A stretch of 64,000 nucleotides of DNA from Eledone cirrhosa (Eukaryota), in NCBI GenBank assembly GCA_964016885.1, contig OZ024746.1, positions 79,980,001-80,044,000 on the forward strand, read 5' to 3'. This document shows positions 3,899 to 63,895 of this stretch, piece by piece (position 1 is the first letter of the stretch; every line of letters begins with the position of its first letter). Under the pieces are notes generated by a model. That model had not been told where the DNA came from. It worked only from the letters and a program-made list of their open reading frames with translations, and ran no database searches. Position numbers and translations under genes: made by a program.

Positions 3899-4095
3899 AG
3901 TTTATCCCGGGTTCAATCGGGGGTAACCACAGTAAGTAAGGTACTCAATACAAAGCAGAGTATAAATATTTTATATAGAAAAGGCTTCTACAGGACTCGA
4001 ACTATTTCATTCGGGAGAAATCATCAGGAACCGCATGATGATTTCTCCCGAATGAAACAGTTCTAGTCCTGTAGAAGCCTTTTCTATATTAAATA
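3899..4095 (-). mobile_element. PLE terminal-repeat remnant: 54-bp inverted arms plus one-sided tail in (TA)n
   Basis: Arms 3973-4026 / 4036-4089; CTGATGA...GAAA motif at the centre; tail contains ACTC...TTGAGTAC. Confidence 0.7.
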
Positions 4096-4146
4096 TATAT
4101 ATATATATATATATATATATATATATATATATATATATATATATAA

Positions 4147-4410
4147 TATATATTAACAAATGGAAACTATATTTATAAAACCATATTTATTTCATTATAC
4201 ATATTTCAAGGACACCAAAGCAAATTATGGTGCGCTTTCATGTCCTTGGTGTTCTTGAAATATGTATAATGAAATAAATATGGTTTTATAATTATAGTTT
4301 CCATTTGTTAATATATTGTATTTTTACTCCAAAAATTTGTTGAGTGCTTTATATCAGTTATAAAAATATTTGCTTGTTGTATCCCAACAAATTAAATATA
4401 ACTTCTACAT
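4147..4410 (+). mobile_element. Hairpin-plus-tail element in (TA)n, same family as 38156-38412
   Basis: ~70-bp inverted arms; tail 4317-4410 matches the reverse complement of 38156-38245. Confidence 0.75.
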
Positions 4411-4452
4411 ATATATATATATATATATATATATATATATATATATATATAT

Positions 4453-4560
4453 ATAGGAACGAGTAGGACCCAGACGGCTGAGCTCAAGCCGTTTCGACGG
4501 CTATTTCTGGACGTCGAAACGGCTTGAGCTCTGCCGTCGGGGTCATACTTTTTCCTATAT
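4453..4560. mobile_element. Inverted pair of PLE terminal-repeat fragments carrying the 3' half of a hammerhead (GAAAC-stem III-GTC)
   Basis: GAAACGGC-TTGAGCTCT-GCCGTC-GGGG on +, mirrored on -; both arms stop at TTCCTAT then (TA)n. Confidence 0.7.
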
Positions 4561-4969
4561 ATATATATATATATATATAAGCGTTAACCTAATACTAACA
4601 CTGTACTGCACTCTTCGTTATTGTTTTTTTGTTTTTTTTAACACATATATATATATATATATATATATATAAAGAGGGGTGTGCTCATACGTGGAGATGC
4701 TATAAAATAGCTTATAAAACAGGGTGAAAACGGAAGAAGTTAATGCCATCGGCCTCTATATGAATGAGATTTTACTAGTTGAAATAAGTAAGACTATTAT
4801 TTACGTTACTGTTACTACCCTATATTTAAGTACACTATAGATATAGATCTTATTAATAAGATATTATTTACACAACGACTAAGCTTAACCGTTCTGGCTC
4901 ACTCATCGGGTAAAGAATCCTCATATTATATATATATATATATATATATATATATATATATATATATAT

Positions 4970-5060
4970 AACGAAGGAAATGTTATAAGGAACCAGGTGG
5001 ACCATAACGCACCAAAGTACTCAATACTTAGGGTAGTAGAGTGGGTAATAGGAACGAGTA
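4970..5060 (-). mobile_element. Tail segment of the same PLE-derived family (also 15130-15237, 62394-62500)
   Basis: AAGGAACCAGGTGGACCATAACGCACCAAAGTACTCAATACTTAGGG recurs at 15148 and, more diverged, at 62414. Confidence 0.75.
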
Positions 5061-5074
5061 TATGTGTGTGTGTT

Positions 5075-5470
5075 GGTTATAGAATGTTTACTGGGGTTGT
5101 CTTTGTGTCACCCCAACTAGAAGATCTTGTGTAAGTGAAAGAAGCACTCAACGTCGATTGTATCTTTCCAAATTGTTGTGGTATATCATTGGCTTTACAC
5201 GACGGTGTATATGTACATTAATAATAAAATACAATGGCTAGATTTCCATAATTCCTTTTATTATGTAATTACCCAGAATACGTATTTCTGTGGTGTCACT
5301 GTCACATCATGATACCATAACGCGATTACTGACACAACGTCTTCAGACAACCTCTTAGGTATAATATTTATTATGTAATCCAATTCTAATATGGAGACAG
5401 ACATGACGTAATGATAACACAAAAATGTATATTATGGCCAATCACGTAATAAAAGGAATTATGGAAATCT
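5075..5470 (-). mobile_element. Older hairpin-plus-tail element
   Basis: Diverged inverted arms 5239-5312 / 5402-5470 (AGATTTCCATAATTCCTTTTATTA); tail has TTGAGTGC on -. Confidence 0.55.
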
Positions 5471-5629
5471 GATTTATTACTACTATGTGTGTGTGTGTGT
5501 GTGTGTGTCTGTGTGTGTGTGTGTGTGTGTGTGTGTGTGTGTGTGTGTGTGTGTGTGTGTGTGTGTGTGTGTGTGTGTGTGTGTGTGTGTGTGTGTGTGT
5601 GCACGTGTGTTTGTAGACCGATAAACACA

Positions 5630-60485: not shown

Positions 60486-60503
60486 TTCAACACTGACACA
60501 GGA

Positions 60504-60546
60504 ACGATGTACTAGTTTCAAGCTTGTTAGCTATCATCAGCACCGT
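60504..60546 (-). ncRNA. Minimal hammerhead ribozyme candidate (inverted copy)
   Basis: Reverse complement of 60971-61013. Confidence 0.7.
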
Positions 60547-60970
60547 ACACCCATCTGCCAGATAGTTGAACGTTCGAAAGTATATACTTTCCTTATGAAA
60601 ATTAACGGCTGAGCAGCCTAATTTGCATATTGAGTGAGTTAAATCGGTCAGGCATACCGAAAACGATAGGTTGAAATAAAATGAAAACGAAATTTCATTT
60701 CTCACTCTTAGTATGGCACTTACTTAAATGTAAGTATGTATGTATACGTACATACATATATGTATACAGACGTACAGTAGCATGCATATATATATATATA
60801 TATATATATATATATATATATATATATATATATATATATACATACAGGTATCGTTTTCGGTATGCCTGACCGATTTAACTCACTCAATATGCAAATTAGG
60901 CTGCTCAGCCGTTAATTTTCATAAGGAAAGTATATACTTTCGAACGTTCAACTATCTGGCAGATGGGTAT

Positions 60971-61013
60971 ACGGTGCTGATGATAGCTAACAAGCTTGAA
61001 ACTAGTACATCGT
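60971..61013 (+). ncRNA. Minimal type I hammerhead ribozyme candidate
   Basis: ACGGTG-CTGATGA-T-AGCT-AACA-AGCT-T-GAAA-CTAG-T-A-CATCGT; 6-bp stem I, palindromic ACTAGT. Confidence 0.72.
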
Positions 61014-61399
61014 TCCTGTGTCAGTGTTGAACAAAAAGGTGACGTGGTTACCTTAACACCGTATGGCATAAATTCAGGCTGTTCAGTTTGTTTACAAACG
61101 AACAAAGCGGCGTTATAATAAGCGTCCGCTAAACTGATGCGTGCATATATGTATGTGTACCTGTATGTATATATATATATATATATATATATATATATAT
61201 ATATATATATGCATGCTACTGTACGTCTGTATACATATATGTATGTACGTATACATACATACTTACATATATATATTTAAATATATATATATGTGTGTGT
61301 GTGTGCGTGCGTGTGTGTGTGTATGTGTGTGCGTGTGTGTGTGTGTGTGTTAAACGAAACATTCCATACTGTCTAACTACAAACATGTGTACCCTGGTT

Positions 61400-62110
61400 G
61401 ACGATGTAAGTATAAGTGAAGAGAAAGACTTCCAGAAATACAAAATGTTATAGAATGTGCAGTACCAATTTGTATAGAGTAACTTCGAGTAAAACAAGCA
61501 AGAACAAAAGACCGAGATATAGTACCATTTGTAGTTACACACAATCCATATCATCAAAATACTTTCAAAGTTGCTACATCAAATATATCGATAATCAAAC
61601 AAAGTAATAAACTAAAAGATGTAATTACTGATAGAAAGAGTATTCAAAGCAAACGACAACCAAATAGTTACAAGCGATTCTAAACAAATCTAAACAACAG
61701 CAATAAAATCTTCACAGAATCTAAGTGTCAATGCAGTCGTTGTTCTACATATCAATTCATACATGTTGGCATTTATATCAACATAAAGGCCGGGCGGATG
61801 ATATATGTGAGTAAAAATATAAACTGTACATGCAGAAATCTGATTTACTCTATCAAATGCCCGAATTGCGAAGAAATATTCATTGGTCAGAAAGTATGCG
61901 ATTGTACCATCACCGGATTAATTGTTTCTACATTTGGCACAAGGCCAGTAATTACCCAGTGCATTACTGGTACTTTATTTTATCGACAGATTAATGACGC
62001 TAAATTTAGATAGATCCCTTTATGTGGTCATTTGAAAATAGGCTGCAATAAAAATTATTCCCATTTTTGAAAATTTCATGACTTAAATGATGTACAAAAA
62101 ATGGTAAAAG
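61400..62110 (+). pseudogene. Penelope-like (Neptune-type) ORF fossil: RT-EN linker and GIY-YIG endonuclease
   Basis: IVPFVVTHNP, IQSKRQPNSYK, NINCTCRNLIYSIKCPNCEEIFIGQ, QINDAKFR*IPLCGHL; stops and frameshifts. Confidence 0.82.
61918..61986 (-). mobile_element. 5'-truncated SINE inserted into the PLE fossil
   Basis: SINE 3' end only; GATTAAT repeated on both sides. Confidence 0.85.
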
Positions 62111-62393
62111 AAAAGAATTATATATATATATATATATATACATATATATATATATATAAATATATATATATATATATATATATATATATATATATATATA
62201 TATATATATATATATATATATATATATATATACATATATATATATTTAAATATATATATATATATATATATATATATATATATATATATATATATATATA
62301 CATATATATATATAAATATATATATTATATATATATATATATATATATATATATATATATATATATATATATATATATATATATATATATATA

Positions 62394-62502
62394 AAAGAAG
62401 GTGTAGTCAGATACCAGGTGAACCATAACGCACCAGAGTACTCGATATTTAGTACTCGAAACGGCTGGATCTCAGCCGTCGGGGTCCTGACTCTTTTCCT
62501 TG
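62394..62502. mobile_element. PLE-derived tail (-) fused to a hammerhead 3' half (+)
   Basis: GAAACGGCT-GGATCTC-AGCCGTC-GGGG...CTTTTCCT; same family as 4453-4560. Confidence 0.7.
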
Positions 62503-62817
62503 TATATATATAAACCTTTGTTTGTACTGCCTCTCTGTTTTTGTTCCCGTTCAAATTTTCACTATATATATATATATATATATATATATATATATATATA
62601 TATATATATATATATATATATATATATATATATATATATATATATATATATATATATATATATAAAGGAACCAAATAAATATATATATTTTTTTTTAATA
62701 AGACTCCAGTTGCATTTTCGATTTCATCTTTTTTTCTTTATACTTTAACTCGTGTAGGACACCTCGGTTATTTTTCATTTTGTAAAAAAACCTCACTTTC
62801 TAATATATAATTATATA

Positions 62818-63895
62818 TATATATCATAAAACATGTCTATAGAATCACCACATAAAATATATACCGTTTCCTCTCCCAATTAGCATAATTAACCATATAA
62901 AAAATCAATTAGACCAAGCTATAAGAATAAAAGCTTCTATGAAGAAATCTCCGACAAATAACCGAAAGCAGCCTCTTCGCGGCGGTTACCACGGAGTATT
63001 TATCGAATATTTCGACAGCATGTATAAATCGACCAGATATACAGTCAACTAAACAGAATTAGGTGTAAAATAAACTAGGAGAAAAGTGTACATATTTAAT
63101 TACCTCTACCATGGTTTCGTCCACATTTTAAGACATCCGATAACATGGGATATCTAGAGCTTCGGATTCTTCAAGAGTTAGCTCAAATTTAGACAATTAA
63201 TTTTCCAAAGTGATCGCGCCAAGAATACATTAAAAAATGGCTAAGAATCGTGACGTGGCAGCGGTCAAGTTAGAAAGGATGTGATTAGTTGCTTACGGCT
63301 GGTAGGCTTTTTGCTAGAAAGCGCAGCCCAATACAGCCAAATTGTATCTCAACCTAACGGGAGATTATTACATATAAAGGTTTACATATATATATATATA
63401 TAAAGTCATAGATATATGTGTCTTGCAACGGGTCACGTTGTGGCTCAATGAAGAATTAATAAATTAAATAATCAGAGCTATATATCATAAAACATGTCTA
63501 TAGAATCACCAGATAAAATATATACCGTTTCCTCTCCCAATTAGTATAATTAACCATATAAAAAATCAATTAGACCAAGCTATAAGAATAAAGGCTTCTA
63601 TGAAGAAATCTCCGACAAATAACCGAAAGCAGCCCCTTCGCGGCGGTTACGACGGAGTATTTATCGAATATTTCGACAGCATATATAAATCGACCAGATA
63701 TACAGTCAACTAAACAGAATTAGGTGTAAAATAAGCTAGAAGAAATGCGTACATATTTAATTACCTCTACCATGGTTTCGTCCGCATTTTAAGACATCCG
63801 ATAACATGGGATATCTAGAGCTTCGGATTCTTCAGGAAGTTAGCTCAAATTTAGACAATTAATTTTCCAAAGTGATCACGCCAAGAATACATTCA
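62818..63895 (-). mobile_element. Partial tandem of PLE terminal repeats (~410-bp direct repeat, 661-bp offset)
   Basis: 62821-63231 versus 63482-63893; TA runs at junctions; hammerhead in each copy. Confidence 0.8.
63763..63840 (-). ncRNA. Hammerhead ribozyme candidate with extended stem II (mutated twin at 63102-63178)
   Basis: ACTTC-CTGAAGA-A-TCCG..AGATATCC..GGATGTCT..CGGA-C-GAAA-CCATGG-T-A-GAGGT. Confidence 0.65.

What the first reader, a model, noticed from the sequence alone, without database searches (positions are those of the whole stretch)
3899..63895. Recurring 'inverted arm + one-sided tail' architecture in (TA)n across unrelated sequence families
Seen: about ten loci (3899-4095, 4147-4410, 5075-5470, 15130-15237, 15491-15625, 37807-38084, 38156-38412, 51530-51852, 60481-61145; direct-repeat version 62818-63895) have two copies of a segment. 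One copy stops and usually runs into (TA)n; the other continues into a 60-170 nt tail. Independent members of a family stop at the same place (4147 and 38412; TTCCTAT at 4453, 4558 and 15237), while the centre of symmetry varies. Established: PLEs form partial tandem or inverted terminal repeats and carry hammerheads. Inference: each insertion involves two priming events from two defined RNA positions, which generates cruciform-capable palindromes throughout the genome.
Basis: partly seen in the sequence, partly recalled or inferred. Interest (0 to 1): 0.75.

Follow-up and report, generated by a model that had tools for sequence, protein, structure and literature searches.

The report
Two-armed Penelope retroelement insertions
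Most of these mirror-image repeats are the cut-short ends of Penelope-like jumping genes sitting in TA repeats, a layout already described, and their ends suggest that each was likely built when both cut DNA strands copied the element's RNA from two fixed start points back towards its capped front end.

Summary
The architecture is real. Of ten listed loci, eight fit as described, 60481-61145 fits only in part, and 51530-51852 is not a family member. The loci belong to multi-copy families. Three (4971/15130, 4147/38155, 37810) run upstream into Hydra-type Penelope-like (PLE) ORFs. Two (60481, 62824) are non-coding hammerhead tandem units. An inverted arm with a one-sided tail in (TA)n is the published PLE insertion signature, and two RT start sites bounding the tail were shown in vitro in 2024. 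Added here: 138 of 154 inverted pairs carry one short and one tailed end; tails are 50-171 nt against 30-40 nt in print; either arm can be the longer, which excludes simple fold-back; inner ends pile up at predicted transcription starts; and at one such junction 44 of 50 listed loci hold a G/C absent from the long copies seen, as copying a cap would leave. Twin priming on capped RNA is therefore likely but has not been shown directly. Cruciform extrusion was not tested. The scan reached much the same reading before on other DNA of this genome.

The parts
3899..4092 (.). Family B insertion: tailed arm on the left (tail 3899-3969), short arm on the right ending in (TA)n; minimal hammerhead motif on the - strand at 3989-4027. 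No ORF linked.
4145..4408 (.). Family C (Hydra-type PLE) insertion: short end at 4148, arms 4148-4316, tail 4317-4408.
4456..4555 (.). Family A palindrome with two short ends and no tail; the arms differ at 5 of the outer 40 nt and resemble two subfamilies.
4971..5060 (-). Family A lone tailed end (80-nt tail plus about 10 nt).
5075..5470 (.). Older family H (copies 70-87% alike): long end near 5075, short arm 5412-5470, hammerhead-like core on the - strand at 5279-5346. No ORF linked.
15130..15235 (.). Family A insertion: 80-nt tail on the left, arms of only about 12 nt.
15263..15445 (+).
15490..15625 (.). Degenerate family I insertion: short arm at (TA)n on the left, tail on the right; the relative in L316 carries a hammerhead motif.
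37810..38084 (.). Family D (Hydra-type PLE): 52-nt arms, 171-nt tail on the right; twin at 45847-46121.
38155..38410 (.). Family C: 92-nt tail on the left, perfect 82-nt arms; twin at 46174-46429.
51500..51852 (.). Not a family member: 32-34-nt inverted repeat with no copy outside the window; the left arm ends in GAAG|GTAAT like an exon end.
60481..61269 (.). Family E: inverted pair of pieces of a 470-510-nt non-coding tandem unit; hammerhead motifs at 60977-61007 (+) and 60510-60540 (-); junction near 60850; left end not at a family end point.
61352..61890 (+). Decayed piece of a PLE ORF (linker to GIY-YIG start), 44% identical to the ORF of L124.
62394..62500 (.). Family A: part of the tail joined head to head to a short arm.
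62663..62803 (+). Family M single tailed end; it is the 3' end of an RT + GIY-YIG family (L109, L114, L118).
62824..63893 (-). Family F: partial tandem of a roughly 660-nt non-coding unit; hammerhead motifs at 63768-63835 (core intact) and 63107-63174 (C3 changed); short end at 62824.
35591..51281 (+). 8-kb near-identical tandem duplication (97-99%) with a 200-N gap at 43287-43486; possibly an assembly duplicate.

Best explanation
These loci are cut-short, head-to-head 3' ends of Penelope-like retroelements and of non-coding hammerhead units in (TA)n, and each was likely made when both nicked strands of the TA target primed reverse transcription, one at the short start site and one at the tail start site 50-171 nt further along the RNA. 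Both cDNAs would run towards the RNA 5' end. When the template is the transcript that starts in the element's own terminal repeat, they would reach the cap within 60-200 nt, add one untemplated C, and be joined head to head, often by 1-6 nt of microhomology, which gives the 100-400-bp hairpins. Longer read-through templates would give the same layout around a truncated or whole ORF. Shown: family membership, ORF links for A, C, D, M and N, two end points, short-plus-tail pairing, either arm longer, clustering of inner ends, the extra G/C. Inferred: priming from both strands, position of the transcription start, the cap as source of the G, and mobilisation of E and F in trans.
For: ORF links: L348 reads ORF, about 1.3 kb of UTR, hammerhead-like fold, tail and (TA)n in one strand for family A; L279, L280, L281, L283 and L284 hold the ORF between inverted family C anchor matches, and the ends of L279 and L280 were read as one short and one tailed; L311, L312, L313 and L315 for D; L114, L118 and L138 for M. 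L111 shows the tail running into an ATG ahead of a 1096-aa open frame. End points: 510 of 531 unique arms in 7 families end at one of two sites, 473 of these 510 at TA. Pairing: 138 short+tail, 6 short+short, 4 tail+tail (all in tandem family F) and 6 with an intermediate end, of 154 unique pairs; 16 of 18 in the evenly spaced sample, p=0.0013 against 50%. Arm length: short arm longer in 25, tail arm longer in 16, within 8 nt in 57 of 98 resolved pairs; junction overlap in 50, blunt in 8, gap in 40. Inner ends pile up 28-31 nt behind a TATA-like box in B, M and N and at an initiator-like A in C and A. 601 loci have both family A arms ending at the same A with one base between; 44 of the 50 listed have G/C where long copies have T. 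Four arms joined straight to (TA)n at the predicted +1 in B and C all have G before it. Literature: PMC11167929 (both strands cut and extended, two RT start sites bound the tail), PMC8557442, PMC3846280.
Against: No RNA 5'-end data: the transcription starts are predicted from motifs, and for family A the start was placed after seeing the end points. The extra base could be terminal-transferase activity at any RNA end. In family M the two TA-joined arms have T, not G. Only 50 of the 601 loci were listed, all on one chromosome. No ORF was found for B, H, I or K, and no partner ORF for E or F. Near-equal arm lengths exceed permutation in C, D, M and N (20 of 38 against 7.1 expected), which fold-back or later trimming of the centre would also give. 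Most loci were chosen by similarity search, and for A the query was the tail. [quoted passage not shown] The Hydra-type ORFs score on no Pfam model. An identical family C palindrome lies on another chromosome (L003).
Confidence: 0.75

Rival explanations
1. Fold-back (self-priming): one cDNA starts at the tail site, folds on itself and copies back until the endonuclease resolves it at the short site.
For: 57 of 98 pairs have arms within 8 nt, more than permutation gives in C, D, M and N; junction microhomology; PMC3846280 proposes self-priming for the junction palindromes; PMC8557442 ascribes the tail to endonuclease-mediated resolution.
Against: In 25 of 98 pairs the tail-less arm holds upstream sequence that the tailed arm lacks (L323: 1242 against 105 nt; L303: 426 against 110). 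L279 has the more N-terminal part of the ORF in its short arm.
Confidence: 0.12
2. The hairpins move as whole units (MITE-like or re-transcribed palindromes) and the shared ends are inherited from a few founders.
For: 601 loci share one centre motif; L003 repeats the 38155-38410 palindrome exactly on another chromosome with other neighbours.
Against: Half-spans range from 41 to 2879 nt within families and grade into ORF-bearing copies; the same centre occurs in two subfamilies of A (L013, L112); the two ends of a unit differ, unlike terminal inverted repeats of a DNA transposon.
Confidence: 0.06
3. The two arms are independent insertions into one TA run, or long inverted insertions later shortened by deletion of the centre.
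For: TA runs collect many insertions side by side; 4456-4555 has two short ends with arms like different subfamilies; central loss would explain near-equal arms.
Against: Independent insertions predict 50% short+tail, against 80 of 85 in the five families not selected by tail; arms join without TA between them; within-locus arms differ about half as much as between loci in A, C and D; deletion would not add a G/C at a fixed site.
Confidence: 0.05
4. The palindromes are fold-back artefacts of sequencing or assembly.
For: No raw reads were available; an 8-kb duplication with an N gap lies in the window.
Against: Arms differ by 5-19% at five window loci; end points are family-specific; one contig of run X3 covers 5214-5480, both arms of that locus, with 3 differences (the run may be the assembly's own sample).
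Confidence: 0.02

Closest known systems
Insertion units of endonuclease-bearing Penelope-like elements (Craig et al. 2021, PMC8557442; Arkhipova et al. 2013, PMC3846280)
   Same: Inverted 5'-truncated copy, partial tandems, tail usually at one end, junction palindromes, (TA)n targets, hammerhead motif in the terminal repeat, promoter motifs in the terminal repeat.
   Different: Tails here are 50-171 nt against 30-40 nt; pairing is counted (138 of 154 short+tail); many insertions are ORF-less hairpins ending at a predicted transcription start; the data favour two cDNAs from sense RNA over self-priming on an antisense template.
Hydra clade of PLEs (PMC8557442, section 11)
   Same: [quoted passage not shown]
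   Different: No whole ORF was read; the A core is CTGAGAA and the D core is variant; no tree was built.
Neptune/Nematis-type PLEs
   Same: Families M and N: DKG (M), Cx2-5CxxC linker, C-terminal GIY-YIG with internal CxxC.
   Different: Clade not fixed by phylogeny; the M hammerhead-like core has T3/A8 in place of C3/G8.
Poseidon element of Anolis in vitro (Frangieh et al. 2024, PMC11167929)
   Same: AT-rich cleavage of both strands, two internal RT start sites that bound the tail.
   Different: There the sites lie in the ORF start and showed no strand difference; here the tail is a leader ahead of the ATG in L111, and pairs nearly always combine one site of each kind.
Metazoan non-LTR retrozymes (PMC7229834; bioRxiv 10.64898/2026.07.22.740005) and non-autonomous Chlamys (PMC8557442)
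   Same: Families E and F: non-coding head-to-tail units with one type I hammerhead motif each.
   Different: E and F carry PLE-type inversions, and F has the short and tail ends, which is structural evidence of PLE mobilisation; the preprint argues from co-occurrence and phylogeny in the parts read. Circular RNA was not tested.

Membership tests
Endonuclease-bearing PLE | RT and GIY-YIG in one ORF contiguous with the terminal repeat | tested here: met
   M: L109, 938 aa, RVT_1 E=2e-6 (28 bits, below the 29.6 cut-off) and GIY-YIG E=2e-6, 3' end linked. A, C, D: ORF pieces contiguous with the arms, homologous to L109 at E about 1e-7 and to full-length database proteins at E=5e-73.
Endonuclease-bearing PLE | Terminal repeats in partial tandem or inverted arrangement with optional tail | tested here: met
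   L111, L128, L279, L280; 154 pairs.
Endonuclease-bearing PLE | Hammerhead motif in the terminal repeat | tested here: met
   Cores read in A, B, C, D, M and E, F, H, K; A, D and M are variants. The strict scan found 5 hits in the window against 0-2 in 10 shuffles. Cleavage was not tested; monomer folding energies are unremarkable.
Endonuclease-bearing PLE | Placement in the PLE RT tree | not tested
   No reference PLE set was at hand; assignment rests on motifs.
Hydra clade (A, C, D) | CxCx5C linker; CxxC and CxH around the catalytic E and N; no CCHH | tested here: met
   CNCRDRSKC, CDLCAEE and CKHR in C; CNLCSEE and CKHR in A; CNCHLPDRC in D. [quoted passage not shown]
Hydra clade (A, C, D) | N-terminal RWK and DKT motifs | tested here: inconclusive
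   Present in the 4 of 22 database homologues examined; the genome's own pieces examined lack the N-terminus.
PLE (B, H, I, K) | Linked ORF | tested here: inconclusive
   B: none of the 20 loci read ran into an ORF; upstream lies a TG/TA-rich tract. H, I and K were not walked upstream.
Non-LTR retrozyme (E, F) | Non-coding tandem units, one type I hammerhead each | tested here: met
   E arrays in L119 and L341; F partial tandems in the window and in L049-L078.
Non-LTR retrozyme (E, F) | Self-cleavage and circular RNA | not testable with these tools
   No RNA holder was listed.
PLE (locus 51530-51852) | Multi-copy family with fixed ends and hammerhead motif | tested here: not met
   Only the window's own two arms match; no hammerhead hit there.

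The most novel reading that the evidence does not exclude
This genome records, in on the order of 100,000 insertions, the missing steps of PLE integration: one complex primes from both nicks of a (TA)n target at two obligatorily different RNA sites, runs both cDNAs off the capped 5' end, and joins them head to head; the same machinery moves non-coding retrozyme-like units.
Probability: 0.55. Interest if true: 0.68.

Novelty: new member of a known kind. Interest (0 to 1): 0.45.

Why it matters
How PLEs build inverted repeats and the one-sided tail is an open question; PMC8557442 and PMC11167929 both call the later steps unresolved. The counts here favour twin priming on sense, capped RNA over the published self-priming proposal, and they give exact positions to test by 5'-end mapping and in vitro. 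The insertions are also a large source of short palindromes: 41 in 790 kb sampled, roughly 150,000 if scaled to 3.0 Gb (rough). The layout itself is known.

Tried and rejected
Rfam scan: the 150 listed of 236 matches were microRNA-type hits below gathering score; no hammerhead family was among them. The unmasked inverted-repeat finder was swamped by (TA)n. Co-occurrence of window families with GIY-YIG ORFs in 9-kb loci was rejected as evidence because the families are dense everywhere. The ORF piece beside family A in L248 is inverted and does not end in an A end, so it was not used as a link. A Naiad-like ORF piece (recognised from recall) upstream of B in L238 ends in a different terminus and was rejected as B's ORF. 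Pfam missed all Hydra-type pieces and their homologues. Sequencing runs: no RNA holder listed; the runs laid were contigs only and, apart from the 5214-5480 piece, no listed piece bridged a centre. The idea of two different RNAs per insertion was tested and not supported in general: arms within a locus are closer than arms between loci. 30 of the 148 inverted repeats in the sample came from one satellite (L215) and were dropped. 12 of 110 pairs with unresolved junctions, and all spans over 1500 nt, were left out of the arm-length count; 2 further pairs were left out of the permutation test. Paper searches for twin priming, cap or non-templated bases, octopus and Hydra-clade palindromes listed no study of these points; only listings were seen, and subscription journals are not covered.
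Full report
Setting. The window is G000:C6:79980001-80044000 of a 3.0-Gb animal assembly rich in (TA)n. Earlier scan notes call it octopus-type; I did not test that. The genome gave 10,597 first-look candidates for GIY-YIG.

Observation. Masked self-comparison recovers eight of the ten listed loci; the two with 12-18-nt arms are seen by eye. 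In 79 evenly spaced 10-kb stretches, 118 inverted repeats remain after dropping one satellite locus. Of these, 52 touch (TA)n, 49 on one side only, and 41 have (TA)n again 29-170 nt beyond the other arm. Shuffles of 40 stretches gave none against 54 real. Exceptions: 51530-51852 has no copy elsewhere; the left end of 60481-61145 is not a family end; 37807-38412 has twins inside a possible false duplication.

Identity. Each family was walked upstream on its hammerhead strand. Family A (4456, 4971, 15130, 62394) runs through about 1.3 kb of UTR into an ORF in L348. Family C (4147, 38155) brackets an ORF in five loci; L279 and L280 were read to their ends and have one short and one tailed end. 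Family D (37810) has ORF ends upstream in four loci. These ORFs carry the Hydra-clade motifs listed in PMC8557442 section 11 and match 22 database proteins of 737-884 aa, though no Pfam model. Family M (62663-62803) is the end of a 938-aa RT + GIY-YIG family, and family N is related to the decayed ORF at 61352-61890. L111 shows the whole layout: inverted short end, tail leading into an ATG, 1096-aa frame, UTR, tail, (TA)n. Families E (60481) and F (62824) are non-coding tandem units of about 470-510 and 660 nt with hammerhead motifs; L341 holds an inverted pair of E arrays. B, H, I and K have hammerhead motifs (I in a relative); B and H show two ends; none has an ORF link so far.

Ends. Over seven families, 510 of 531 unique arms end at one of two sites, 50 (N), about 63 (M), about 60-70 (B), 80 (A), 92 (C) and 171 (D) nt apart; for F the reference tail was cut at 80 nt. 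Of 154 unique inverted pairs, 138 combine one short and one tailed end. This holds in families not selected by tail (80 of 85) and in the evenly spaced sample (16 of 18). The two ends are therefore not chosen independently.

Centres. In 98 resolved pairs the short arm is longer in 25, the tailed arm in 16, and they are within 8 nt in 57; junctions overlap in 50, are blunt in 8 and have extra bases in 40. A tailed cDNA folding back cannot make a longer tail-less arm, and a short-site cDNA has no template for the tail, so at least those 25 need two cDNAs. Inner ends pile up just behind predicted transcription starts: about 30 nt behind TATA-like boxes in B, M and N, and at an initiator-like A in C and A. 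An earlier scan note (e1-10352193) suggested copying to the cap, so I tested it. 601 loci have both A arms ending at the same A with one base between, and 44 of the 50 listed have G/C where the long copies seen have T. Four B and C arms joined directly to (TA)n have G before the +1 A; two M arms have T. Equal arm lengths exceed permutation in C, D, M and N, which leaves room for coupling, trimming or some fold-back.

Mechanism. The endonuclease likely nicks both strands of (TA)n; each 3' end would prime on the RNA, one at each site; the cDNAs would run to the cap or stall earlier and be joined. The family links, end points, pairing and junction bases are shown; the priming geometry, the transcription starts and the cap are inferred.

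Artefact check. Arms differ by 5-19% at five window loci, and a contig of run X3 covers both arms at 5214-5480. No raw reads were laid.

Literature. PMC11167929: parts 1-2 of 4 read (abstract, results, start of methods). PMC8557442: passages and section 11. PMC3846280 and PMC7229834: passages. bioRxiv 10.64898/2026.07.22.740005: parts 1-3 of 5. Supplements were not read; those of PMC8557442 list Hydra families and may include these, and those of the preprint are closed. The inverted copy, one-sided 30-40-bp tail, (TA)n targeting and two RT start sites are all in print. Searches listed no paper on strict pairing, twin priming or a cap signature in PLEs. The twin-priming model of L1 inversions and cap-derived G at retrotransposon 5' ends are recalled knowledge.

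Verdict. A known kind of element and insertion, with new families, longer tails and junction statistics that make an open mechanistic question testable. The scan has reported the same reading several times on other DNA of this genome.

Noticed in passing
window 51526-51852: An exon-like stretch (open frame, ends GAAG|GTAAT) has its last 33 nt copied in reverse 180 nt downstream, followed by 30 nt that keep the frame open; this could be a piece of spliced mRNA written into the intron's TA run. No match for the 30 nt in the DNA held.
   Followed up: partly
window 35591-43286 and 43487-51281: 8-kb tandem duplicate at 97-99% identity across a 200-N gap; possibly two haplotypes.
   Followed up: partly
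window 2217-2531: 86-nt inverted repeat (99%) around a TA run, made of a diverged interspersed repeat; no family end points seen.
   Followed up: partly
L118:5700-5960, L128:4720-5900, L127:3200-3500: Hammerhead-like cores with T3/A8 in place of C3/G8 in several ORF-bearing families; a compensated variant.
   Followed up: no
L348:2110-2220: In family A the predicted transcription start lies inside stem II of the hammerhead-like fold, so only read-through RNA could form it; the core reads CTGAGAA.
   Followed up: partly
window 62511-62562: 3' end of a further family; longer relatives (L276, L144) carry a hammerhead motif.
   Followed up: partly
window 2730-2907, 14057-14241 and more than 15 other places: A roughly 190-nt SINE-like family at 77-96% identity.
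   Followed up: no
window 5899-7416 and 7649-9163: 1.5-kb GC-richer direct repeat (84%), LINE-like by translation; related piece at 27545-27923.
   Followed up: no
L215:5448-10000: 88-nt satellite array in inverted blocks.
   Followed up: no
L279:400-700 and 6500-6900: The same TA-rich 26-nt motif flanks both ends of a family C element, like a target-site duplication within an array.
   Followed up: no
L238:62-450: Piece resembling a Naiad RT C-terminus (recognised from recall), so a third PLE clade may be present.
   Followed up: no
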